DNA of 62,987 nucleotides, the filler included, from Hausera hauseri (lineage: Eukaryota), in the NCBI GenBank assembly GCA_046269625.1. It is 9 parts of 9 records of this genome, joined end to end, with 100 filler letters (N's around TTAATTAATTAA, not from the genome) between each part and the next. Parts side by side here need not be neighbours in the genome. Positions count along the whole stretch, not along the records: positions 54,794 to 62,987 come from JBJURY010737654.1; 8 more parts are not named here. One strand, 5' to 3'. Under the pieces are notes generated by a model. The model did no database searches and was not told where the DNA came from. It saw only the letters and a program-made list of their open reading frames with translations. This document shows positions 537 to 62,987 of the stretch, piece by piece. Made by a program: the position numbers and the translations under genes. Positions within the stretch are counted from its first letter, which is position 1. Each line of letters begins with the position of its first letter.

Positions 537-3500
537 TTAAATTCCATTCTGTAATTTACCAACACATGCAATGAACTCGTCGACAATCGTCTGATTAGTA
601 AATCGAATAGCAAATTTCACTTTTTTCGCTTCGCCAGTTTCCGACCCATCTATAGCTACCCAACAAAGAGTATTCTTTGAATCTTCTTTCGGAACTAAAG
701 TCGGACAGTCTCGTGTTATTAATTGGTTACAACACACTTTATGGACAATTTCTCTACGCATCAACAGACGACCCGTTACGTTTCCATCAACACTCTTTGA
801 CAAAACTTTCATCTGTCCCAGCCCACACTCTTTCCATGCATTGCAAGAATCGTCATATTTGTACAATTTAGCTCGCTGTTGAAATAGACATTCCCAACCC
901 TCCTCACCGGTAACTATATCAACCTTATCAGGCAACGCAATGATCGGATCATAATGGGGATCGTAACCATCATCATGATGACTGTCATCCTCCTCATTTA
1001 CGTTATCACCATCCTGTGCTACGGTTTTGATCGCTGATTCATTGACCGAGATCTTATCGTTCGTTAATGAACAATTGCTGCTGAAACTGTATGGAGGAAC
1101 AGTCGTTGAGAAGGTGAACGAAGGTAACGGTTTACAGAAACTGAACGATGATTTGTCTTGTTGTGATCCTCCGCTAAAACTGAAAACCGGTTTGTTTTGC
1201 ACAGTTTGTTCGACAGTACTCTGTTCTGATTTCGATTCGGTTGCTTCAACTGGAACCTGTTCGTCACCGGATGAATCAGATGATCCGTTGTCAGGTAGAT
1301 TTTCGTACGCAAAGAAGTGATCTGGAAGTTTCAGTGCCCTTGCACGTTGGATTTGATCATCTGTTACGAAAGGTTCGCTAACGAAAATGACATCACTATC
1401 ATCATCGTTCTCGTCAATATCGACTACTGCGCTTCCTTGTGGTTCTCTTTGCGGTTCTTCTTTAATCGTACCTTCTTTTGATCTTGAACAAGCGATACAA
1501 ATGTTGTCCGTTGCATTATTTTCCGTCGTGCACTCTACACACTTCCAAACCGACTGTTTACTCGATCCGAACGTAAATGGCAAAGCAGATCCGAAAACAA
1601 AAGTCGGTTTCGTTTCTTTGATATTATTCGGTTGACTACCGAATATAACAGGTCCGGTACTTTGTGTTGAATTCGGTAAATTAAAAGTAAATCCCGATGA
1701 TTGTTTAGTGTCGTTCGATTTCGACAGTTCAAAAGTAAACTTCGATACAATTGCATTGCCGGATGGTTTGGTTAATTGTGATGAACAGGGTTTTTTCGTA
1801 TTGCACGCCGCGCAACTGTCAAGGGTTGTATCGTTCATGGACAAACAAGCATCGCATTGCCATTTTCCCTTAGAGAATTTCGATAAATCGGCGCAAACGT
1901 CGCCCGTCAATTTTCCCGGGGGTTTGGTGGTTTGCGTCATGTTCGGTTTTTTCGTATTGCACGCCGCGCAAGTGTCAAGGGTTGTATCGTTCATGGACAA
2001 ACAAGCATCGCATTGCCATTTCCCCCTACCGAATTTGGCGAGATATTCGCCGATACCGGATTGCCTAACGGATGTCGTATTGCTAGTTGATGACAACCGT
2101 CCAGAACATGCCCGACACGACGCATCCGTATTGTCATTGAAGCTGCAGCAATGTCGGCATCGTAATTTAGCGGCATTAACGTTATTTGTCGATAAATTCC
2201 CAACGTTGTCAAATGATTTATCATATCGCCAAACTTCCTTTGGTGAATTCGAATGGCCGTATTTCGATTTGCGTGATTTGTTACCGGTTTTCCGTTGACG
2301 GAATTTCATTGACGCAATGTTTTCCATTGTCTGAATGATACCGGATGCGTCGTTATGGATTGATTTCAATCCAATGTCCAACATTTGTTCCAGTGAATGA
2401 ACATTGGTCGATATGACGGTTTTTATCTGATTGTTTTCCAATCGTTCAATTCGTTCGTATAATTCGCCGTTTTGCGTTTGTAATTGGCTAACGTTAACGA
2501 TCAGCTGTTCGATTAATTGATCTTTCGTTGAATTGTTGTGACGAATTCGATCGAATTCATTCGATAGCGAATCAAATCGATGGAGCATCAATTTCAATTT
2601 GACGTATAAATTCGAGTAGAGTTCCGTTTGGTGACGGATATTCGTTTGTAAATCGATAATCGATTCGTGATTGTTGTCCAATGAATTGGTTAGTTGATCG
2701 ATTTGTTGCGTTTGATGTAAATTGGACGATTTGCATTTGTCGGTAATTTCGTGCAATTTCAATTCGATTGCCGTCAATTTCTCATTCGTTATCGTATACC
2801 CGTTTTCCGATAATCCGTTACCGTACGGCCGTCCGTGCGGTTCAGTTGATTCATACGACTGCAAATTGCTGTTGCTCGTTTCCACATCGTACGTAAAGTC
2901 GAGTAGCGAATAATCCGCTGTTCCTATTGAATTGATCAATGATATTTGCTCCTCCAATTGACTGCCGATTGTTTCCCGATCATTTCGATCCACATATTCC
3001 AAATTATCCAGTCCGAACTTTACCGAATCCGATGCATCCTTTAAAAGGTCCTGAATTTGTACCGGTGATAAATTGGACCGAAGTGCGGCGATTTTCGCCA
3101 TGGATAATTTCGATTTGACTAACGACAATTCCGGATGTTGGCAATCGATTTGTTCGGCGATTTTGATCGTGTCTTCAATTTCGATGAAGTTGCAATTTGC
3201 CGATGATTTCAAATGCCAATTGACGATGAACAGACAGCCGGTAAATTTCAATTTGGTGATTTCGTCATCGGAATAACGTTTCGTGTCGAAATCGAGAACG
3301 AGAGAATTGTTGGCGAATTTCAATGGGAATTTCAATTGGGAACCGAATGAATGTCGCGATAAATTCGTAATGGGAAGATTTTTCAACAGATTATTCTTAT
3401 CCGATGGACTGATAACAGACGAATAGTATTTCACGGATTGCGCACCGAATGATTCGCTGCTGTCCGATACGAATACCGAATATTCTTGAAGCCATTTCCC

Positions 3501-4381
3501 AATGATCAATCGAACGTTTTCCGCCATGTTTTCGGACGGCTCTTGCAAAACTTCCAGGCCTTTCTTTAGAATATCTCTCAACAAACCGATTTGTGTATTT
3601 TTCTTATTGTTCAACAGAAAATCACAAATTGCCAACCAGAGTTTATTCAAACCGTCGGGAAACGAAACGTTAACAACGCCAATCGGTACGATAACGTTCG
3701 ATTTCTCTGCGAATAGTTTCTGATAAGTCAACAGACAACCGAACAAAAACGACAAAACGTCGACTTTCGTAATGTTTTCCGGTGTTTTCTTTTGAACAGT
3801 CGTAACGGGCAATTTGATGAATAATTTATTCAGAATTAAACTGAGATATTTCTTTGCCGATAATGATAAACTGTTGTTCAGTGATCCGGTTAATCCATTG
3901 ATTTGCCACATGATCGTTTGTAAATCCGGCTGTGATTTGTCGAAATAAAATAAATCCAATTCCAGTAGACGTTCGATATCGTAATTCGGTTTTTTCAAAT
4001 CGAACAATTGAACGAGATTTGAAAAATTCGATAGTTCAGCACCGAAGACAATTCGAGAAAGAACAGACAACCAATTGCCGGCAATTGGTGAAATATCCGA
4101 GTTCAATACCAAATGATTGGCAACGAATCGTCGATAGACCGATTGTTTGGTGATCCATTTCTGAACGATATCTGGAAAATTCGTTTGACTCTACGAAAAT
4201 TACAACTTAACAAGTAGCCTAAATTTAATACCGACGAACTTTCCTGGAAAATGTTTTGAGAACGAATGATAACTTCATGTGCAATTTGCGCGAGATGAAA
4301 CGCCAATTGGTAACAAAATTCCTGGCAATCGTCTGCGGTATTACAATGAAGTAACGCTAATTCCGATAATTTGTTTAGACA
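537..4381 (-). CDS. RANBP2: Nup358/RanBP2-like nucleoporin and SUMO E3 ligase, 5'-truncated by the contig end; exons 4381-4232 and 4190-537
   Basis: Leu-rich N-terminal region, coiled coil, four RanBP2-type zinc fingers (e.g. WQCDACLSMNDTTLDTCAAC), FxFG/FSF repeats, IR1-M-like segment DDSDVIFV...RALKLPDHFFAY, and C-terminal RanBD1 (DPHYDPII...TGEE...RAKLY...WKECGLG...RLLMRRE). A GT-AG intron at 4231-4191 joins the upstream exon in frame. Confidence 0.93.
1789..2026. repeat. Near-identical duplication of a zinc-finger unit, period 156 nt
   Basis: ~80 nt at 1789-1870 repeated at 1945-2026 with very few differences, both encoding GKWQCDACLSMNDTTLD(T/S)CAACNTKKP. Confidence 0.9.
4191..4231 (-). 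other. 41-nt spliceosomal intron (phase 0) in RanBP2
   Basis: Minus strand reads GTATTA...TTTTCGTAG. Removal gives continuous ...IFQESSS|SQTNFPDIVQKW...NHLVLNSD into the 1191-aa ORF. Confidence 0.85.
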
Positions 4382-51827: not shown

Positions 51828-53640
51828 ATGTCCAGAACTTTCTACAACACTATACGCAGAGAAGCTGCTGTTTACCCTGAGCAATACTTTCATCATGTAT
51901 CAAGAATCCCAAACCAGTTAAAGTATGGTCCAACGGTGAACCGTCATGTCAAAATAATTACCATCAGAGGTCCATCAATGAGTTCATTACGGAATGTTTG
52001 TCCATTGATGGCTTAATTCTCCATATGGCAAGAGGTACAATCGTTCTCAAGACTTTAAAAAATTTACAATTCACAATGTCCAACATCGCAGTGTTATTTG
52101 AGGAAGAGACTAGCGATAAATACGTCTATGAGTATAAACATCATTCAGTTTCGTCAAAATAGAATTCCATTGATAATTATGATTGAGTGGATGTTACCAA
52201 AAAACATTTAGCTATGTCTCGCCCAATGATCTTGGCACAAACGCCACCAGACATAATAAAGGATACCAGATTAAATTACCTGCAAACTGGTCAGTCAAAT
52301 ACAATTCGAATATTGACCGCGTCCCTAGGGTTTATGATGGATAAAACCCCAATACCAGTTGAAGCCATTGTCTCAGACAAAAAAGGAAAAACATTATATG
52401 GTACCTTAGTGGTAAATAGAGTAAAGGTCCATAATTGTAATACTGGAAGGCATGGCATCGACTTCCAAGCATTAAAGTCTCATGGAATGGATATCTATGA
52501 AGTATCCAAGGAACTAATACAATGGTTATTTTGTACCTTTGTAGTTGGAATTGATAAACACCGTATGTTTCAGATATTCGATATTTCTACAAATTATCTA
52601 GCCGGTGTTATTGATGTTTCAAAACATCCAGAAGTTACTGGAATAACTTTCAATATGATAGACATAACAATGTTGCCAAAGAGTTGAAGCTCCCGGAATT
52701 TAAAAGCGGACAAAGTTATGAGCAACACAGTGAGGGAAAATTAGACTTAACACTAGATATCTTCCAGACCATCGGTGAATTGAAACAGGTGAGTTGGACC
52801 CCAGAGAATATGATAGAAAATGTGATTGATGTCGGCGAATTATTTTATCGACGAGATAAATATCTAATAGACTTTTCTTGGATGCATAAAATCGAAGCCA
52901 GCTTCATTAACCCTAGTAATACCTTAAACAAGGAAGATTTCATAGAAGATATGGACCTCAATACACCAGAAAATATTACAATGGACGATGAAGAGTCCGA
53001 AAATTCTGATGACATAATCGATAATCTCGATATTCATCAAATTCTAGCCTCAGAAACTGACGAGGAAGAAGAAGCTGAAATTGGAAGAGGGGTTTACCCT
53101 GTAAAATCCAAAGATATTTCGATCCAAACTATGCAATTGAATTCAGACAAACTATCTGTGCAGATTAATCACTGCTTATCCTGTACTGAAAAGCCTATAT
53201 TCAATTTAGGAATAATTATTAAAAAGGATTACTGAAATCTACCAATACCCATTCATCAAATCGATCGACCTTATTATTTTGGAAAAACCATTTCAACCAA
53301 GAAACTCTCTAAATAGAATTCGGAACAGAATATTTTTATCGGTGCAATATATCAAAAACCGGAAAATCAATATTTTACCGTTCCATATTGAAAGACGCTT
53401 GAAGCTACCTGTAAATTACGGAGTCCAGTTCAATACTAAATTAAGAATCAAATTGACTGTTTCCATTGTACTCGAATCCATCACCGAAACATCCTTTAAT
53501 GGACCTTTGAAATATTTACTCCTGTTGAAACAAAATCAACAATTGCTAATCCCAAATAAACGACCCAGACCAGAACGCACACCAGACAAAAATGTTATCA
53601 ACACAAGAATTGCCATGGAGAGTGTTGATTTAGACGGTTG
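51828..53640 (+). pseudogene. Fragmented 3' ORF of an LTR element with DEDDh exonuclease-like fold(s) and an acidic tract
   Basis: IVSDKKGKTLYGTLV...NT..HGI..ALK...EV..EL..WL...VVG..VIDVS resembles the REX4/ISG20 fold; acidic residues of Exo I are absent. Confidence 0.5.
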
Positions 53641-54456: not shown

Positions 54457-54885
54457 TATTTCTGGAAACCTCCTAGTGAATCCTGAGAAATATACTTTGT
54501 CTTTATTAATTAAATCCAGCTAAAATAGCAATGCGTTGGACAATAGAAAACACCGCATTGGCCAACGATTTTAAAACAAAAACTTATTGTGTATAAAAAT
54601 ATTGCACTTCATATAGTACTAAAATTGTATAATTTAATTTTAAATAGATAAATCTCTGAATTTTTCTTCTCTACGTATGTAACTTTCTGTTCCNNNNNNN
54701 NNNNNNNNNNNNNNNNNNNNNNNNNNNNNNNNNNNNNTTAATTAATTAANNNNNNNNNNNNNNNNNNNNNNNNNNNNNNNNNNNNNNNNNNNNTTGTTGT
54801 TGTTGTTTTACTGTTCTTCTTTCATTAACTCAATTAACTAGTATAAATATATAGGAGTTTTTGTCATATTGGTATAAGACGTGAA

Positions 54886-55356
54886 ATGATAATGGATTAC
54901 GTGAAGATTATTCTGACAGATGAAAATGCAACTGTTCCGAGACGTGTTACAGCAAGCAGTGCAGGTTACGATGTGTTTTCCAATGTCAATACAAGTATTA
55001 CGGACAGCACAATCAAATGCATAACGACCGGTATTCGATTGGCAATTCCATCGGGCTATTACGGTCAACTGATATCGAAAAGCGGATTAGCAAAACTCGG
55101 ACTGACTGTTGTCGGTGGTGTAATTGATTCGGACTTTCGTGGTGAAATCAAAGTGTTGCTGGAAAACCAATCCGGTGAAACGTATGACATTTTAAAGGGT
55201 AACGCAATCGCACAAATCGTTTTTCTGCGATGTGAAGAGGCGGAATTCAGTGTAATGTCACCGGAACAATGGGGACTGTTTTGTGTCAATGAAGCAACAC
55301 AAAATGAACGCAAAGAATTCGGTTTCGGTGAAATGGACAAAACCATTTATGTTTAA
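54886..55356 (+). CDS. dut: Trimeric dUTPase (variant motifs)
   Basis: Motifs SAGYDV, ISKSGLA, GVIDSDFRGEI, IAQIV, RKEFGFG. Confidence 0.93.
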   Translation: MIMDYVKIILTDENATVPRRVTASSAGYDVFSNVNTSITDSTIKCITTGIRLAIPSGYYGQLISKSGLAKLGLTVVGGVIDSDFRGEIKVLLENQSGETYDILKGNAIAQIVFLRCEEAEFSVMSPEQWGLFCVNEATQNERKEFGFGEMDKTIYV

Positions 55357-55430
55357 TTATTGTCATGATAATAATTAGTTGTTTTGATTTCTTTTGTGTT
55401 ATAAACAAATAATGATTTTGTATATAAATA

Positions 55431-55922
55431 ATGATGACGACTGGATTTATAGATATTGAGGCTTTCCAAGATAACAATGCCCGGTACGTAATAAAGGAAC
55501 TATGCATTATGGACGTCTGCAACATTTTCCACCCACTTGTGTACGTATTCGAGCCAGACATTGAGTGGAAAGAGTTGACGGAAAAGGCGAAAATTACCAA
55601 TGCGTTTCTCATACAACATCGTCATGGACTTTATTGGCATGAGGGTGTTACAAACTTTTGCGTAACATGCATTATGAGCGACATTTGTGATCGCTTCGAT
55701 ATTCGTAAAACAATGTTTTACGTTAAAGATCAAGTTGGAGGTCAGAAGTTTACACAACTGCACTCACACTTTCCAGACTTGCGAATGACGACGTATTCAA
55801 CATTGACCGACTCAAAAATGACCGTACCTGACAATATTTCATGTCCATATCGTGAACATGGACAGTACTGTGCCTATAAAAAATGTTTAGCACTTTGTAT
55901 AAATTATGTTTCATACAAATAA
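55431..55922 (+). CDS. DnaQ-like DEDD exonuclease with C-terminal Cys/His zinc site
   Basis: FIDIEAF...VIKEL (Exo I), HGLYW.EG, YVK, CPYREH...CA. Confidence 0.75.
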   Translation: MMTTGFIDIEAFQDNNARYVIKELCIMDVCNIFHPLVYVFEPDIEWKELTEKAKITNAFLIQHRHGLYWHEGVTNFCVTCIMSDICDRFDIRKTMFYVKDQVGGQKFTQLHSHFPDLRMTTYSTLTDSKMTVPDNISCPYREHGQYCAYKKCLALCINYVSYK

Positions 55923-56028
55923 ATGTATACATACGTATGTATTTTGTTTTCATTTATTTAAACATGTTTCAGACACGATCTGAGTGATTGATATAAATAC
56001 ACATAAGTTGTAATAGTAAATAATAATC

Positions 56029-56499
56029 ATGGAAATTGCAGATCAATTGAAGCAATTGCAAAATTTTAATGTGTTATCACTTGGGGAATTGGTACGATGG
56101 TGGCAAGTAATTAACAGTGATTTAGTAGCACGAGCAGCAGCGGATTTTGGATTTAAAGAAGACTTGGCGTCAATAGCATTGATGACAACATCTGCAAACT
56201 GTACCTCTGTAGAAAATCTAATTACTGTGATAAATCAAATGTACATTCACCGATTGTACGATACAAATTATTTTGATACAGTGGAAAAGTTACGTGGTGA
56301 ATTAAGTAATATGAAAGAAAAAATAGTGAACAAAGTACAAAACTTTCAGTTTATTTGTTTAGTATGTAAACAAAGAAAAGTGGATACTGCATTTTTAATG
56401 TGTGGTCATGTTGTTGTATGTCAAAAATGTTCTAACAAAACTCACTGCCCAGAATGTAAATGTGTTATAACAGAAATTGTACACGTTTATTATGATTGA
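56029..56499 (+). CDS. C-terminal IAP/MDM2-type RING finger protein (putative E3 ligase), no BIR domain
   Basis: CLVC...FLMCGHVVVCQKC...CPEC..VI..IVHVYY preceded by a coiled-coil-like segment. Confidence 0.88.
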   Translation: MEIADQLKQLQNFNVLSLGELVRWWQVINSDLVARAAADFGFKEDLASIALMTTSANCTSVENLITVINQMYIHRLYDTNYFDTVEKLRGELSNMKEKIVNKVQNFQFICLVCKQRKVDTAFLMCGHVVVCQKCSNKTHCPECKCVITEIVHVYYD

Positions 56500-56552
56500 G
56501 CAATGATAAATAAAGTTAACATTTTCATTTTCATTCATTTTCTTCAGAAATT

Positions 56553-57131
56553 ATGAATACCTTCACTTGGACATTAGAAAACTTTACCACAGACTACAAG
56601 AACAATGTTACGGTAACCAGTAATTCATTCAGTTTACAGCAGTACAATTTCTGTATTCGAATTTACCCGAATGGTGATGGTGTAGGACAATATACTCATT
56701 TATCCGTTTTCTTTGCAATTGTCAAAGGTGAACATGATGATACGTTGCAATGGCCTTTTCGTGCAGCGATTCAAATGTCTCTACTGAATAAACAGGGTGA
56801 AGTTGTTTGCTCAGACAAATTGAAAACTGATTTACGATCAACATGTTTTATGAAACCACAAGTTGAACGCAACATTGTAAGTGGATTTCCGAAATTTGTT
56901 CCATTATCAAAATTGGAATCCTTTCTCCCTGTTAATGATGACACATTAATCATAAAATTTGACTTATTGGAAATTCTACTACCATGGAAACAGTCAGAAA
57001 CAGCAATCAAACGACCGGAAAAAGCATCGAAACAACGACTTTGGAATCTTATAGAACAATTCAATGACTTATCCACTCGTCAAATGCATGTTATTGCTGC
57101 TATGCGTGAAATTGTAGACGATTATTTGTAA
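56553..57131 (+). CDS. TRAF-type MATH domain protein
   Basis: FTW.LENF, S..F, YNFCIRIYPNGDG.G..THLSVFF.I.KGE.D..L.WPF, SGFPKF, DDTLII. Confidence 0.92.
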   Translation: MNTFTWTLENFTTDYKNNVTVTSNSFSLQQYNFCIRIYPNGDGVGQYTHLSVFFAIVKGEHDDTLQWPFRAAIQMSLLNKQGEVVCSDKLKTDLRSTCFMKPQVERNIVSGFPKFVPLSKLESFLPVNDDTLIIKFDLLEILLPWKQSETAIKRPEKASKQRLWNLIEQFNDLSTRQMHVIAAMREIVDDYL

Positions 57132-57288
57132 ATGTCATATTAATAAATTATGTCATTTTGTTTGTGCTCTTATTAGAACTAAATTTGTAAAGTAAAGTCT
57201 AATATTTACACTTGTACAGTATAAATAAAGCAATTTGATACATGTACACACATATATATAGAGGTGTAATTACACTTCATTCCTGTCT

Positions 57289-57483
57289 ATGAAAAATATG
57301 TCTTCAGAAAACAACAATTCCATCGTGCAAGATAGCAGTTCCACGAGTTCGTACAGTCCGTATTCGCTCAGAAAGTCACGGTTGTACAATGGATACAACT
57401 TGCACTATCTGCGAACCCCTATTCAATTGGCATTGTCACAGCCGGTTAAAATCAAGCAAACAAAATATGGTCTGTTGGTGTAG
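57289..57483 (+). CDS. Small hypothetical protein (64 aa)
   Basis: ATG-started ORF with TATATATA ~30 nt upstream, in the viral gene array. Confidence 0.45.
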   Translation: MKNMSSENNNSIVQDSSSTSSYSPYSLRKSRLYNGYNLHYLRTPIQLALSQPVKIKQTKYGLLV

Positions 57484-57569
57484 GATTACAACATGTCTCA
57501 TTAGCTTACATGTCTCAAAAGTTACTTACTTCATTATAAACATTCATTCTCAACACTAATACAAATCAA

Positions 57570-57845
57570 ATGGAACAGTACATTGAAAGTGAGATTCAAA
57601 AACTAACTGATGATATTTTGACTGGGTATATGTTTGACGTTCAGTTTTTGTGTGAACTGACAGAAACGAGAATAATTACCCGACGTGAATATATTGAATT
57701 AATTGTCAGATCTCTCTTCATACAACGCATCAAAGATGAAATGAGACGAAAACGTCAACAACAACAATGGATTAATATCCTTATTGGCCTCACACTTTCT
57801 GTTTCAATTTGTATCGTAATCAAAAAGTTGGTTGACCATATTTAA
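57570..57845 (+). CDS. Small tail-anchored membrane protein (91 aa)
   Basis: C-terminal hydrophobic helix WINILIGLTLSVSICIVI flanked by basic residues; TATAAA at 57535. Confidence 0.7.
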   Translation: MEQYIESEIQKLTDDILTGYMFDVQFLCELTETRIITRREYIELIVRSLFIQRIKDEMRRKRQQQQWINILIGLTLSVSICIVIKKLVDHI

Positions 57846-57953
57846 ACTATTTTGCTACATGTTTTGTTTTTATGTGTCAATTACATTTATCTCGTTTCTT
57901 TGTTATACTGTTGTATAAATACCTATGCTTCTTTGGTCCTGTATGATTATAAA

Positions 57954-58403
57954 ATGTCTCACTTATCACAACTCATTTGCCTGTATTACTCCTTCGACGG
58001 TCTCCGGAGTCACCTTTACAATCTTGATCGACCTTTGCAGTATGCTTGGTATAATTCTCCTGAAACGATACTCCTAAGTGCTGAAGAGAATTGGAAAGCA
58101 CGAAAACCCTACATTCTACACATGAAGCAAATTGTTGGCGATATGGATATATTATTTGGTCAGATTTTTCGCACATGGCAGAATTTGGCGTTGTGTGCAA
58201 ACAATCCACGTCAAATGCAGTTTGTGGATGATTTTGTCCAAGGTGACCAGATGGATTACGTTCCAGTGTGGCAGTCAGCGGTTCAGATTTGTTTTAAGCA
58301 ACATTTCAATATAATTAATTCCGACGGACTCGAACATGCACCTACTGAATTGGTAAACCCATGTTGTTTGTGTGCTCCTAATTCATTAGAGACTACTATT
58401 TAG
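57954..58403 (+). CDS. Hypothetical protein (149 aa; ATG 57954 preferred over TTG 57852)
   Basis: TATAAA at 57914 lies 40 nt upstream of the in-frame ATG in AAAATG context. Confidence 0.65.
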   Translation: MSHLSQLICLYYSFDGLRSHLYNLDRPLQYAWYNSPETILLSAEENWKARKPYILHMKQIVGDMDILFGQIFRTWQNLALCANNPRQMQFVDDFVQGDQMDYVPVWQSAVQICFKQHFNIINSDGLEHAPTELVNPCCLCAPNSLETTI

Positions 58404-58826
58404 TTGTTGTACAACAGAATATAAAAATTAAATGTTTGATATCGAGTTTATTTTCAACATTTTCTCTCTTATGTATAAAATATAACCATTAATGACCACA
58501 GTGATTATAGACACTTTAACCCTAGGATGTTAATATTATTATAAATTTATAAACATTTACTTAATCGGTAAAGACGTTAAATTAAAGTTTAATAATTTGT
58601 TTTACTGAATTAATTACATGATTTAAATCAACTTCCAAAATAAATTGTGGTACGTTATTTTGATTTTATTTTCTTATTTTAATTATTTCAGACTTCAAAT
58701 ACAGGACTTTGACAATATTAACAGTCAGATTCAACGTAGGTTACTATTTTTTATAAGTATTTAATTTTAATTTTTTTTAGAATTATTAATTTTCATTAAA
58801 ATAATTATATATTTATATTTGTCGTA

Positions 58827-61800
58827 ATGAGTAATTATTACTCTATTAAATTTAACGAACATGTTTATTTCATCTGTCCTACATGTAAAACCGCAAGCAT
58901 TTGTAAATATGTTGATTTTTATACAACCCATAAAAATCATCTTGGACCTTTTACAGGTTGTTCAAAGAAAAGTATATTACATACTTCTTTGAACAACTGT
59001 ACGGCTTACAGTAATAATCTATGTACAAATGGTCCAGACCATACATCAGTGGCAAAATGTCATGATGTAATGGAAAAATATTTTTCATACAAATATAATG
59101 GGCAAGTTTTTTACATTTGTCCTGGCTGCATGGCTGTTGAAAGTGGTCTGAGTTATAAACAATTTTATGACTCGCACACTAGCCATTTGACAGCCTTTAC
59201 GGATAAAACGAAGAGGACCATTTTCATGGACAATAGACCAGGACCATCTACGTCAGCAGGAGCAGTAACAACAACAACGGTAACAGTAAGAAGGTCAGCA
59301 ACAAATCGAAAACGGAAATTTCGACTTCAAAGTACTGAAAACAATCTGACAATTAAGAGGGACATGAATGGAATGTATGTTAGCCTCCAGTTTAATGTAC
59401 AGGATGTTGGATTGAATCATATTGAAGTCAACAATGATATACGGAAAAAACTTGAAACGGAAATAAATCGGTTTGAGCACTGCAAAATTCAATTTGGTGC
59501 ATGTGTTTTATTTGAGAAGTTGGAAGGTGATCTCAAAACTTGGTGTCTATCGGTGAAGGCTTCGGAGTACAATGATACTTTTCTCAGTACATCTTCCGAG
59601 AAACTCAATGAAAAAATTCAAACCTATGCAGAACTCGGAAGTGGATGGCGGATTAAAAACATTTTGGAATTAAGTTTTATTTTAACAAAATACTCACCCG
59701 TCATCTACCTAACTGGTCATGGGTACATAAAAACACCTAGTGCTTTGTATCAAAGTAAAGCTGTAGTAAATGTACAGAATAAAGACAACTTGTGTTTCGT
59801 GTACAGTATATTATCTGTTTTACATTATAACGATATACCACATCACAATAACCGATCATCCAAGTACAGCATGTACTTAAATGAATTAAAGTACAACGTT
59901 GACGAAATGCCCATGCAGTTGAAAAATATACCAAAATTCGAAACGGAAAACAATTTATCAATCACCGTCTTCATATATAATTCAGATGTAATATATGATG
60001 CTGATGAGACTGTATATAAAAATCCCTATGTGGACATCATCTATCGAACAAAAAATCCAAATGCTCGTTCGGTACAGTTACTGATTCTTGAGGATAAACA
60101 CGGATATCATTATGTAGGAATAGTAAACTTGGATCGACTGCTAAATATGCATGACATGTTAGGCGGCATATACATCCATTGTAAATGGTGCATATTATGC
60201 CTTCACGGGTTTCGAACCCAAACTGCATTTGACAGTCATATGGCATTGTGTAAGGCACACCTGGATAAAACAACGCTTTACGTGATGCCAAAGAAGAAAC
60301 ATTTAAAATTCACAGATCACAGTAAATCAGTAACACCTGGATACGTAATCTATGCAGATATTGAGGCCTTACTAATACCCACTAATGATGATGATGAAGA
60401 TACAACAAGAACAAAGCATATTCCAATTGCAGTGGGAATGGTGATAGTTTCGTTACGAGCTACTTATTCACCACAGTCTGATTACCAGTACTTTGTTGGA
60501 AATGATTGTTTGGTACGGTTTTTGCAATACATAGAACAATTCGTTTTGTCAACTGTTGCACCATTCTACAAGACGAATGCTCAAACTCCGATGATTCCTC
60601 TCAGCACAGTTGAACAGTTGGACTTCGATCAAAGCATAACATGTTACCTGTGTGAAAGTCATCACCAAGGCCAATCGCTGGTACGTGATCATGATCACAT
60701 TACTGGTAAATATCTCGGTGCAGCTTGCAAATCATGTAATCTGTCCCGACAAATTCGCCCACAACTACCCGTTGTTTTCCATAATTTCCGAGGCTATGAT
60801 TCACACCATATTGTTAAACATGCTTTGAGCAAATTTAAACATTGGTCACTGAGTGTTGTACCTCAGTCAACCGAAAAGTTCTTGGCGCTTTTTGCACATT
60901 TGCATGGTGTTACAATACGCTTCATGGACTCGTACCAATTTCTCAGTGATTCATTAGCACGGTTATCTTCATGTATCGACAGCTTTCCACTAACGAGTAC
61001 TGCATTTCCAAACAACACCATCCATAAAAAAGGAATATTTCCATACACGTTCGCAACATCACTGGATATACTGCAGAATACAACAAGTCTTCCACCAAAG
61101 TGGGCCGGTATAACAGATGTAGAGTATGATGAGGCACATGATGCTTGGATTTCAGCAGGATGTCAATCACTACTGGACTACATGTTGTATTACTTGCGTC
61201 TCGACGTATACCTGTTAGCAGACATTTTCCAAGCGTTTCGAACTAAAGCACTTCAGGAAGATGGTTTGGAGCCGCTTTGTTTTCTTTCAATACCAGGATT
61301 GAGTTGGTCAAGTGCTTTAAAAACTCTCACAGACCCATTGGATTTACTACATGATTCAGATATGTACAGATTTTTCAACCTGGCCATTCGCGGAGGAATG
61401 ACATTTGTCAATACTCACCATACCAAATCTGATGCTGAAACGAGCCTACTGTATATTGACATCAACAATTTGTACGGATGGGCTCTCTCTCAACCTTTAC
61501 CATGCAGTGACTTTTCATGGATACTCGGTGATGGATTGGAGCAAATATGTATGGATTTACTACAGTTGGACACAGTTACGTCAAAATATGGATACACAAT
61601 GGAAGTGGATTTAGTTATTCCCGATGAGTACCATGATAAATTAGATCAACTACCACTTGCTCCCGAACTCAAATGTCCACCAAACAGTACTGTGAAAAAA
61701 TTGCTTTTGACTCATAGTCCAAAATACAACTATGTAATACATTGGAGATTACTTCAATGCTTTGTAAATCTCGGAGCTAAGGTAGTTAAGGTACATCGGA

Positions 61801-62681
61801 TAATAAAGTACCGTCAGGCAAACGTATTTGCCAATTACATCAATTTTAACTCAGAACGTCGAGCCTCTTCCACATCACAGTTTGACAAGGATTTTTACAA
61901 ACTCAAGAATAATTCGCTTTATGGAAAGACAGTAGAAAATCTTCTCAAACGACTGAACATTAGATTGTGTAATAATGAAAAGCAATTTCTGACGTATACC
62001 AGCCATTATGGATTTAAACGTAGTATGCACATAGCAGACAGTTTAGTAGCCATTTTACTCAACCGAAATGCAGTATGTTTGGACCGACCCATATACATCG
62101 GTGAAACTGTATTGGATCTGAGTAAGCTGCGCATGTACGAACTACAGTATAAGGAATTGGAATCATACCGACATCATTTCAACTGTGGTATAGATATTAT
62201 TGCTGGTGATACTGATAGTTTTTTCCTCCGCTGCCGTAACGTTGACAAATTTGAATTGCTCAAAAAGATGCAAGAGGACAGACTACTAGACACAAGCAAT
62301 TATCCCCCTGACCATCCCCTGTATTCGAGTAATTTCGCCAATCAAATAGGATTATTTAAGGATGAGGGACATGGTGATGAATTTGATGAAGCTGTGTTCC
62401 TTAATACCAAATGCTACAGTTTGCATCGATCTGGTCATGGTCATATGCGTGCAAAAGGTGTAATCCTCAAACAGACAACAATAAATCATGATGACTACCT
62501 GAAAGTCTATAACGATGGTACGGTGTTCAATGCTGCTCAGACTACGTTTCAATCCGTTAATCATCAGATCCATACGGTAAAACGCATGAAACGTGCACTA
62601 ACAATATTCGAAGACAAACGACACTGGGTGAGTCGTAATATATCTTTAGCTTACGGTCATTGGAGGCTAAATAATAATTAA
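58827..62681 (+). CDS. polB: Protein-primed family B DNA polymerase with N-terminal zinc-finger repeats and an inserted endonuclease VII-like domain
   Basis: YADIE, FHNFRGYDSH, RFMDS, KGIFPY, YLRLDV, IRGG, YIDINNLYG, KLKNNSLYGKT, GDTDS, KCY, AKGV; RDHDHITG..GAAC..CN at 60642-60740. Uninterrupted 1284 aa. Confidence 0.96.
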   Translation: MSNYYSIKFNEHVYFICPTCKTASICKYVDFYTTHKNHLGPFTGCSKKSILHTSLNNCTAYSNNLCTNGPDHTSVAKCHDVMEKYFSYKYNGQVFYICPGCMAVESGLSYKQFYDSHTSHLTAFTDKTKRTIFMDNRPGPSTSAGAVTTTTVTVRRSATNRKRKFRLQSTENNLTIKRDMNGMYVSLQFNVQDVGLNHIEVNNDIRKKLETEINRFEHCKIQFGACVLFEKLEGDLKTWCLSVKASEYNDTFLSTSSEKLNEKIQTYAELGSGWRIKNILELSFILTKYSPVIYLTGHGYIKTPSALYQSKAVVNVQNKDNLCFVYSILSVLHYNDIPHHNNRSSKYSMYLNELKYNVDEMPMQLKNIPKFETENNLSITVFIYNSDVIYDADETVYKNPYVDIIYRTKNPNARSVQLLILEDKHGYHYVGIVNLDRLLNMHDMLGGIYIHCKWCILCLHGFRTQTAFDSHMALCKAHLDKTTLYVMPKKKHLKFTDHSKSVTPGYVIYADIEALLIPTNDDDEDTTRTKHIPIAVGMVIVSLRATYSPQSDYQYFVGNDCLVRFLQYIEQFVLSTVAPFYKTNAQTPMIPLSTVEQLDFDQSITCYLCESHHQGQSLVRDHDHITGKYLGAACKSCNLSRQIRPQLPVVFHNFRGYDSHHIVKHALSKFKHWSLSVVPQSTEKFLALFAHLHGVTIRFMDSYQFLSDSLARLSSCIDSFPLTSTAFPNNTIHKKGIFPYTFATSLDILQNTTSLPPKWAGITDVEYDEAHDAWISAGCQSLLDYMLYYLRLDVYLLADIFQAFRTKALQEDGLEPLCFLSIPGLSWSSALKTLTDPLDLLHDSDMYRFFNLAIRGGMTFVNTHHTKSDAETSLLYIDINNLYGWALSQPLPCSDFSWILGDGLEQICMDLLQLDTVTSKYGYTMEVDLVIPDEYHDKLDQLPLAPELKCPPNSTVKKLLLTHSPKYNYVIHWRLLQCFVNLGAKVVKVHRIIKYRQANVFANYINFNSERRASSTSQFDKDFYKLKNNSLYGKTVENLLKRLNIRLCNNEKQFLTYTSHYGFKRSMHIADSLVAILLNRNAVCLDRPIYIGETVLDLSKLRMYELQYKELESYRHHFNCGIDIIAGDTDSFFLRCRNVDKFELLKKMQEDRLLDTSNYPPDHPLYSSNFANQIGLFKDEGHGDEFDEAVFLNTKCYSLHRSGHGHMRAKGVILKQTTINHDDYLKVYNDGTVFNAAQTTFQSVNHQIHTVKRMKRALTIFEDKRHWVSRNISLAYGHWRLNNN

Positions 62682-62987
62682 TTGCTTTATTACGGCATTT
62701 ATAATTATCAATTATTTTATTGAATTTTCTTTGGCTGACGATGACGAAATCGGATAATGTGTGGAGAATTTCAGTCAGTGCTCAGTACAGTTAATGATTT
62801 GACATTCTGTACATAAACATGTACATTAGTCATTTGACATGATGTTAATAAAATTTGTCATTTATGTGATAATGTCAATAAATTTTACATTTCTCTTTTA
62901 TTTTACTTTTATTTTACCTTGATGAGCTCACGACTGAAAAAAAATTGCAGTTACAACGTGTTTTTGTTTCGACGAACAACGCGTTTC

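What the first reader, a model, noticed from the sequence alone, without database searches (positions are those of the whole stretch)
56029..57131. Adjacent RING and TRAF-MATH genes: a split or decoy TRAF
Seen: a coiled-coil plus RING ORF is followed 53 nt later by a stand-alone TRAF-C domain whose amphipathic helix (QRLWNLIEQFNDLSTRQMHVIAAMREIV) lies C-terminal. Known: cellular TRAFs are RING-zinc fingers-coiled coil-MATH, RING-less TRAFs act as dominant negatives, and IAP-type RINGs partner TRAFs. Inference: a viral two-component E3 (MATH adaptor plus RING) or a decoy that blocks TNFR/TLR/RLR signalling.
Basis: partly seen in the sequence, partly recalled or inferred. Interest (0 to 1): 0.72.

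Follow-up and report, generated by a model that had tools for sequence, protein, structure and literature searches.

The report
Polinton TRAF decoy with tail coil
A virus-like transposon, present in many copies in what is likely a flatworm genome, carries a cut-down copy of a host signalling adaptor (TRAF) that has lost its enzyme end and gained a conserved tail helix, so it likely jams host signalling, while the ubiquitin-ligase-type gene beside it is a separate gene that usually occurs without it.

Summary
The two ORFs and the 53-nt gap are real. They are accessory genes of a multi-copy Polinton/Maverick family in a probable triclad planarian. They are not a split TRAF: the RING is C-terminal and IAP-type, and is unrelated to TRAF RINGs. 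An obligate pair is unlikely. MATH was absent in 41 of 41 informative RING-selected contigs (1 of 42 with a known carrier added). Only 5 of 46 informative MATH copies have RING directly upstream, and one sister lineage runs straight into MATH with no RING. Each gene has its own TATA-like and AATAAA signals in sister copies. Both evolved under purifying selection. The MATH gene is the interesting part. It keeps most of the TRAF2-type peptide groove, lacks TRAF-N and two TRAF-C trimer contacts, and carries a family-wide four-heptad helix C-terminally, on a flexible linker. A second Polinton family in this genome carries a full-length TRAF in the same region. Viral TRAFs (ISKNV ORF111L) and planarian Burro MATH ORFs are known.

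The parts
54886..55356 (+). dUTPase, Polinton accessory gene
   Evidence: Pfam PF00692 E 4.5e-26; lies upstream of O163 in many sister copies
55431..55922 (+). O163: conserved 163-aa ORF of unknown family that precedes RING or MATH in sister copies
   Evidence: no Pfam, PHROG or NCBIfam hit; synteny
55992..55999 (+). TATAAATA, TATA-like box 30 nt before the RING ATG
   Evidence: sequence; the same motif at the same distance in most sister copies listed
56029..56499 (+). BIR-less IAP-type RING protein: helical N-terminus (1-75), short coiled segment (78-106), C3HC4 RING C110-C143 (56356-56457), 13-residue C-terminal tail ending VYYD
   Evidence: dN/dS 0.24-0.50 against 17 copies
56500..56552 (+). 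53-nt spacer with AATAAA (56509-56514); shorter than in sister copies, whose CCAAT and TATAAATA elements are partly missing here
56553..56975 (+). TRAF-C/MATH domain (aa 1-141) of TRAF1/2/3/5 type; groove mostly kept, beta2-beta3 loop two residues short
56976..57131 (+). Pro-rich linker (aa 142-155) and C-terminal helix (aa 156-191) with four heptads (a/d: L163 L166 F170 L173 Q177 V180 M184 I187 Y191), conserved family-wide
57142..57147 (+). AATAAA after the MATH stop
   Evidence: sequence
57298..57483 (+). ORF-X remnant: 61 codons here, about 150 aa in sister copies; the usual downstream neighbour of RING
   Evidence: sequence
57570..58403 (+). two small conserved element ORFs (91 aa, 149 aa)
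58827..62681 (+). 1284-aa family-B DNA polymerase of Polinton type with an endonuclease VII (HNH) insert
   Evidence: Pfam Endonuclease_7; motifs DINNLY, KNNSLYGK, DTDS; many relatives in G000; no PDB hit for the C-terminal half

Best explanation
These are two separate accessory genes of a multi-copy Polinton in a likely planarian genome: the first encodes an IAP-type RING protein that likely works as a ubiquitin ligase on its own, and the second a RING-less TRAF-C domain whose conserved C-terminal helix is predicted to self-associate, so that it would occupy host TRAF-binding sites and likely block TRAF signalling. Shown: domain identities, independent gain and loss, separate promoter-like and poly(A)-like motifs, purifying selection, a conserved heptad tail, a kept groove and lost trimer contacts. 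Inferred: (1) the tail helices bundle, standing in for the missing TRAF-N stalk and giving avidity; (2) the groove binds the same receptor or adaptor peptides as host TRAF2-like A proteins; (3) with no RING, zinc fingers or cIAP-binding coil, the bound complex does not signal to TAK1-p38/JNK or to cell-death control, which helps the element persist in host cells; (4) the RING dimerises through its tail and ubiquitinates a target chosen by its own N-terminal helices.
For: Independence: 0 of 41 informative RING-selected contigs hold MATH (1 of 42 if C452690 from the same hit list is added). In the pooled set of 128 contigs, RING is followed by ORF-X in 49 of 61 informative cases, by tandem MATH in 5 and by convergent MATH in 5. 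MATH is preceded by RING in 5 of 46 informative cases, by O163 in 10, by the polymerase in 13, by O91 in 3 and by nothing recognised in 15. Tandem copies sit in one subclade (SH-aLRT 95). Its sister clade of 9 copies has no RING before MATH (98), and the 7 of them that I aligned share one junction with no RING remnant. First-look candidates: 3378 for RING, 752 for MATH. Selection: dN/dS 0.09-0.46 for MATH against 17 copies and 0.24-0.50 for RING against 17. Groove: Y395 36 of 37, D399 32 of 37, G400 35 of 38, F410 38 of 40, S453 34 of 45, G468 42 of 44, P470 40 of 44 kept (TRAF2 numbering). Trimer contacts named in PMC8198530 (F354, F491, Y350, Y386): the Y386 loop is two residues short in 34 of 34 family rows against 1 of 12 cellular rows; the F491 position is I in 22 of 45 (F in 10 of 12 cellular); Y350 lies before the start codon; F354 is kept. 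Tail: hydrophobic at a 96 of 127, d 96 of 107, e 76 of 105, but f 5 of 104 and g 6 of 103; central Gln in 17 of 26; linker 14-33 aa; helix pLDDT about 90. [quoted passage not shown] Best host match among 5 host TRAFs tested is L211, the planarian TRAF2-like A type (43% for the window, 53% for L032).
Against: No binding, oligomer, expression or signalling datum exists. MATH lies beside a RING in 11 of 57 copies, in two different arrangements, which a functional link would also produce. Proteins from different copies could act together in trans, so gene separation does not exclude a complex. The F447 pocket position is I/L/M in 43 of 45 family rows against F in 10 of 12 cellular rows, and S467 varies (31 of 45 S), so specificity may have shifted. 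Tail dN/dS is noisy and often near 1 (0.23-1.72 on 17-37 codons). One of 6 copy-to-copy MATH pairs has dN/dS 1.55. The one well-studied viral TRAF, ISKNV ORF111L, activates caspase-8 apoptosis rather than blocking (PMC3352826, title and passages). This copy's MATH promoter region is shortened, and run X1 holds a near-identical variant that skips 56507-56977, so MATH may be dispensable or silent at this locus.
Confidence: 0.55

Rival explanations
1. Two-component E3 ligase: the MATH protein is the substrate adaptor, and its tail helix pairs with the helix at residues 78-106 of the RING protein to degrade host TRAF clients.
For: Both proteins have a free amphipathic helix. MATH neighbours this RING in two arrangements, tandem (5) and convergent (6), and one more copy (L107) has a different double-RING ORF downstream. 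MATH adaptor plus RING ligase is a known logic (SPOP-Cul3-Rbx1; recalled).
Against: 0 of 41 RING-selected contigs carry MATH; a 9-copy lineage has MATH with no RING in its slot; BIR1 and the TRAF coiled coil, the known IAP-TRAF interface, are both absent (PMC12776124).
Confidence: 0.12
2. The tail helix does not self-associate but recruits a host partner (a host TRAF coiled coil, an IAP or a ligase scaffold), so that ORF2 is an adaptor that poisons host TRAF trimers or re-routes their clients.
For: The broad a/d/e hydrophobic face and the variable 14-33 aa linker suit a tethered docking helix. Canonical TRAF-C trimer contacts are degraded. The genome holds many intact TRAFs and BIR domains as possible partners.
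Against: A regular four-heptad a/d pattern with a central Gln is what a homo-oligomeric coil looks like (established coiled-coil rules, recalled); no partner was identified.
Confidence: 0.2
3. ORF2 is a signalling agonist: a ligand-independent TRAF mimic that clusters adaptors and promotes survival or proliferation of infected stem cells.
For: ISKNV ORF111L is an activating viral TRAF (PMC3352826); planarian TRAFs are needed for cell survival (PMC7586133, title and passages); a sister Polinton family carries a whole TRAF.
Against: ORF2 lacks RING, zinc fingers and TRAF-N, the parts that carry the signal; ORF111L has a RING and a coiled coil (PMC3352826, passage).
Confidence: 0.08
4. Split TRAF: one TRAF gene broken into a RING half and a MATH half, or re-joined by splicing.
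For: RING-then-MATH order; the spacer ends in a pyrimidine run and CAG in this subfamily.
Against: The RING is IAP-type and C-terminal; there are no TRAF zinc fingers; no similarity to L172 or L211 TRAFs; the AG before the ATG is absent from most of the more distant copies listed.
Confidence: 0.02

Closest known systems
ISKNV ORF111L and related megalocytivirus TRAFs (PMC3352826, passages read; Foldseek hits A0A8F9RTS3 and Q4KS49)
   Same: a TRAF1/2-type MATH domain captured by a DNA virus
   Different: ORF111L is 296 aa with RING, coiled coil and MATH, binds TRADD and drives apoptosis; here the MATH stands alone, with the helix on its C-terminal side, in a Polinton
Burro/GYPSM1 giant LTR retrotransposons of planarians (PMC6431247, passages read)
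   Same: a planarian mobile element with MATH_TRAF_C, BIR, RING and dUTPase cargo; in Dugesia tigrina the MATH is a separate upstream ORF
   Different: a retroelement, not a Polinton; no C-terminal coil mentioned in the passages; relationship to this family not tested (no Burro sequence at hand)
Beta-class adintoviruses / MELD viruses (PMC8502044, passages and section 3.4 read; one supplement searched, cut when stored)
   Same: divergent PolB not matched by pfam03175, integrase, ATPase; figure legends list TRAF-like, TBP-like, dUTPase and IAP genes in some elements
   Different: the TRAF label there is a legend entry for elements of Fig. 5, which I could not see; no architecture or function given
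TRAF1 and RING-deleted TRAF2 (dominant negatives; PMC7586133 passage for TRAF1, the rest recalled)
   Same: no RING, intact peptide groove
   Different: they keep the N-terminal TRAF-N coil, trimerise canonically and bind cIAP; this protein has neither the coil nor the Y386 and F491 contacts
XIAP/cIAP/MYLIP C-terminal RING domains
   Same: C3HC4 spacing, 13-residue tail with an aromatic residue third from the end
   Different: no BIR domains; N-terminal 75 residues only faintly UBA-like

Membership tests
TRAF family (canonical, whole or split) | C-terminal TRAF-C/MATH domain of TRAF type | tested here: met
   PDB TRAF1 E 6.6e-27; Foldseek TM 0.65 to TRAF1/2/3/5
TRAF family (canonical, whole or split) | TRAF-N coiled coil directly N-terminal to TRAF-C | tested here: not met
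   the ORF starts at strand beta1; a stop lies 12 codons upstream
TRAF family (canonical, whole or split) | N-terminal TRAF-type RING and TRAF zinc fingers | tested here: not met
   ORF1 RING is IAP-type and C-terminal; no zf-TRAF
TRAF family (canonical, whole or split) | TRAF-C trimer interface aromatics (F354, F491, Y350, Y386) | tested here: not met
   1 of 4 kept (residues from PMC8198530)
TRAF family (canonical, whole or split) | receptor-peptide groove | tested here: met
   most groove positions conserved, F447 position changed; list of groove residues recalled; binding itself not tested
TRAF family (canonical, whole or split) | trimer formation | not tested
IAP family | one or more BIR domains | tested here: not met
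   no BIR hit
IAP family | C-terminal dimerising RING with aromatic tail | tested here: met
   8 zinc ligands C110-C143 and a 13-residue tail; top hits cIAP1/2, XIAP, MYLIP
IAP family | UBA domain before the RING | tested here: inconclusive
   sub-threshold alignment to the cIAP1 region; no PDB hit for that stretch alone; three-helix pattern in a low-confidence model
IAP family | E3 ligase activity | not testable with these tools
   needs a ubiquitination assay
cIAP-TRAF two-component ligase | BIR1 binding to the TRAF coiled coil | tested here: not met
   both surfaces absent (PMC12776124)
cIAP-TRAF two-component ligase | consistent co-occurrence of the two genes | tested here: not met
Polinton/Maverick (adintovirus-like) | family-B DNA polymerase of Polinton type | tested here: met
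   motifs and endonuclease VII insert; assignment by motifs, no DNA_pol_B_2 hit
Polinton/Maverick (adintovirus-like) | rve integrase and A32-like ATPase | tested here: met
   on sister contigs L097 and L098 upstream of dUTPase (ATPase just under cut-off); not on the window's contig, which starts at dUTPase
Polinton/Maverick (adintovirus-like) | major capsid, penton and protease genes | tested here: inconclusive
   no Pfam or NCBIfam hit for the candidate L096:3-488; pX-like and penton-like stretches seen by eye only (motifs recalled)
Polinton/Maverick (adintovirus-like) | terminal inverted repeats and target-site duplication | not tested
   the contigs are fragments; no whole element was held

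The most novel reading that the evidence does not exclude
Planarian Polintons evolved a circularly permuted TRAF: the trimerising stalk was moved from the N- to the C-terminal side of TRAF-C, giving a RING-less multivalent decoy. A second Polinton family separately carries a whole TRAF, and such element-borne genes account for a sizeable part of the unexplained planarian MATH/TRAF expansion.
Probability: 0.35. Interest if true: 0.65.

Novelty: new variant of a known kind. Interest (0 to 1): 0.46.

Why it matters
Planarians have an unexplained excess of MATH/TRAF sequences (121-282 transcripts in Schmidtea mediterranea; PMC6109357 and PMC7586133, passages). Here, hundreds of MATH loci and dozens of full-length TRAF pieces belong to Polintons, so such counts may mix host genes with element cargo. 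This can be tested directly in chromosome-scale planarian genomes. Repeated capture of TRAF and IAP-type genes by Polintons (and by Burro retroelements) points to TRAF signalling as a barrier to mobile elements in these animals and supports a virus-like life of animal Polintons. A TRAF-C domain with a C-terminal coil is an architecture I did not find in searches (listings only for most papers), and it would be a natural test of how TRAF avidity can be rebuilt.

Tried and rejected
Complex prediction (three copies of ORF2) was not available; neither oligomer nor RING-MATH binding was modelled. ESM Atlas gave no result for the RING protein or its homologue P0156. The AlphaFold model of the RING protein was too poor to use (pLDDT 47.5), so no fold search was run on it. 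No RNA holder was listed among 5 runs; this says nothing on expression. No relative in viral contigs; in metagenome contigs only one weak 34-residue match, L272, not followed. Protein searches found only 3 close MATH relatives, one more among representatives (P0012) and 4 RING relatives, all unnamed and without context; fused forms outside 105-336 aa and 85-273 aa were not searched by length, although (all lengths) showed no long protein above 48% identity. Splice-acceptor reading of the spacer: rejected, not conserved. Careful trees did not finish; both trees are quick trees with SH-aLRT only. The donor of the MATH gene is unresolved: weakly with planarian TRAF2-like A (89), a polytomy. No AU test was run, so 'two separate captures' is not proven. 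Four rows under 90 aa were dropped from the first tree (L111, L108, L168, L169). PHROG and NCBIfam gave nothing for O163, ORF-X, O91 or O149. Depth ratios were not used as copy numbers. Fig. 5 of PMC8502044 and the cut part of its supplement could not be seen and may show a similar gene.

Full report
Setting. The stretch 54794-62987 is the whole contig G000:C737654 of an 869-Mb fragmented animal assembly, and has dozens of relatives at 72-97% DNA identity. It carries dUTPase, O163, the RING ORF, the MATH ORF, a cut-short ORF-X, two small ORFs and a 1284-aa family-B polymerase with an endonuclease VII insert. Sister contigs continue upstream of dUTPase into TBP-like, A32-like ATPase and rve integrase genes. 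This is a Polinton/Maverick family, most copies of which are decayed. The host is probably a triclad planarian: an intact genomic TRAF (L211) groups with Dugesia japonica TRAF2-like A.

Observation. Both ORFs and the 53-nt spacer are as described, and a contig of run X2 bridges the spacer without a difference. The spacer is short only in this copy: three sister tandem copies have about 114-117 nt with a CCAAT box and TATAAATA in front of MATH, of which the window lacks 73 aligned columns. RING has its own TATAAATA, and each ORF is followed by AATAAA. The two therefore look like separate transcription units (inferred; no RNA data).

The RING protein. Its best structural relatives are cIAP1, cIAP2, XIAP and MYLIP RINGs. 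It ends 13 residues after the last zinc ligand, with an aromatic residue third from the end, as in dimerising IAP RINGs (the role of the tail is recalled). It has no BIR domain and no real similarity to TRAFs of the same genome. The N-terminal 75 residues are helical and faintly UBA-like, but no test reached significance. dN/dS against 17 copies is 0.24-0.50 (simple Nei-Gojobori counts).

The MATH protein. It is a TRAF1/2/3/5-type TRAF-C, modelled at pLDDT 89.7 as the eight-stranded sandwich, a flexible linker and a helix at 156-191. In the 45 family rows and 12 cellular rows of alignment A4, most groove residues are kept, although the F447 position is I/L/M in 43 of 45. Of the four interface aromatics that PMC8198530 names for TRAF2, only F354 is kept: the Y386 loop is shortened in 34 of 34 rows, the F491 position is mostly I, and Y350 lies before the start. 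The tail is present across the family down to 45% identity, including P0001, P0004 and P0012 from other assemblies, and has a clear a/d/e hydrophobic face with a central Gln. P0002 and P0003 end before it. dN/dS is 0.09-0.46 against 17 copies; the tail alone gives noisy values, some above 1.

Do they belong together? First-look candidates number 3378 for RING and 752 for MATH. Of 52 contigs chosen from the RING hit list (the top 29 other than the window, plus 23 more with long flanks), 41 had 300 nt or more downstream and none held MATH; C452690, also in that list of 150, does. In the pooled set of 128 contigs, tandem RING-MATH occurs 5 times (window included) and convergent MATH-RING 6 times. 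MATH follows O163 directly 10 times, the polymerase 13 times, O91 3 times and nothing recognised 15 times; 11 were too short. The tandem copies form one subclade with L113, which has lost RING but keeps its first codons. The sister clade of 9 has no RING, and the 7 aligned share one junction. So whole lineages spread with RING alone or with MATH alone in that slot. The known cIAP-TRAF contact needs BIR1 and the TRAF coiled coil (PMC12776124), neither of which is present. Against this, 11 of 57 MATH copies do neighbour a RING, and complexes in trans cannot be excluded.

A second capture. A zf-TRAF search found an intronless full-length TRAF beside the Polinton TBP-like gene or ORF-X homologue. 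It has 138 matches in G000, many with stops, the weaker ones being host TRAFs; 6 of 32 contigs examined show TBP next to it. Its MATH and the stand-alone MATH form separate, well-supported clades (SH-aLRT 99-100), but their relation to each other and to host TRAFs is unresolved.

Host pathways. The 5 Rel-domain matches read like vertebrate exons, and two TNFR loci are GC-rich and fish-like (my reading). Host TIR proteins and many intact TRAFs are present. The planarian review lists TRAF2/6, TAK1, p38, JNK, XIAP and RIG-I (PMC7958881, passages). The likely target is therefore TRAF-TAK1-MAPK or cell-death control rather than classical NF-kB (inference).

Mechanism. Shown: identities, independence, selection, tail conservation, groove kept, canonical trimer surface lost. 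Inferred: the tail self-associates, replacing TRAF-N (strands beta1 and beta8 are neighbours, so both ends leave the domain on the same side; recalled); the multivalent, RING-less protein occupies TRAF-binding motifs and blocks signalling; the RING protein is a separate ligase. Overall confidence 0.55: about 0.85 for independence and about 0.6 for the decoy step. No complex model could be run.

Known systems and novelty. Viral TRAFs are known (ISKNV ORF111L, full-length and pro-apoptotic; PMC3352826). A TRAF-like gene is labelled in a MELD-virus figure (PMC8502044), and planarian Burro retroelements carry MATH, BIR and RING, with a separate MATH ORF in D. tigrina (PMC6431247). I read passages of these papers, not whole texts; PMC11410931 has no mention of Polintons, MATH or TRAF. 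Searches listed no paper on a Polinton-borne MATH with a C-terminal coil. The scan's own notes held no match to this sequence; two searches gave notes on Burro-like cargo in this genome and on flatworm TRAFs and Polintons elsewhere, all unchecked. Verdict: a new variant of a known kind, interest 0.46.

Noticed in passing
L172:364-1326 (G000:C34211), L159, L168, L192, L193, L199, L202: A second decayed multi-copy family encodes an intronless full-length TRAF (RING-zinc fingers-coiled coil-MATH). Of 32 contigs examined, 6 have the Polinton TBP-like ORF directly upstream and 2 an ORF-X homologue downstream; its MATH forms its own clade.
   Followed up: partly
L098:2555-2983, L096:4468-5055: The Polinton family carries a TBP-like gene (Pfam PF00352 E 1.1e-9), and most element genes read here have a TATAAATA-like box 30-50 nt before the ATG.
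   Followed up: partly
window 57298-62681: This copy is mosaic: ORF-X is cut short, the convergent polymerase that follows it in most copies is absent, and a different polymerase (about 45-55% identical) follows O149 on the same strand.
   Followed up: partly
window 56507-56977, run X1: A near-identical variant skips most of MATH (depth 8.2 beside 9.2 for the intact form); run X2 has a low-depth joint skipping RING, 55924-56548.
   Followed up: no
L157, L257-L261, L263, L265: Vertebrate-like TRAF3, Rel/NF-kB and TNFR exons on short contigs suggest foreign (prey) DNA in the assembly; my reading of the sequences, not a classified result.
   Followed up: partly
L107:3399-3851: A different, double-RING ORF (RING-H2-like first finger) lies just downstream of MATH in one copy.
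   Followed up: no
G000: 451 BIR candidates, 148 scored matches, many in short frames with stops; 11 of 12 fetched loci show none of the Polinton genes tested.
   Followed up: no
L266-L270: Expanded intronless TIR proteins with long helical N-termini (35 TIR_2 matches), possible upstream partners of host TRAFs.
   Followed up: no
window 537-3911 (- strand): Intronless 1124-aa RanBP2/Nup358-like C-terminal part (RanBP1 domain, zinc fingers); a host gene in another stretch of the pack.
   Followed up: no
window 52214-52687 and 52810-53235: Two ORFs of 157 and 141 aa without a Pfam family, in the neighbouring, unrelated stretch.
   Followed up: no
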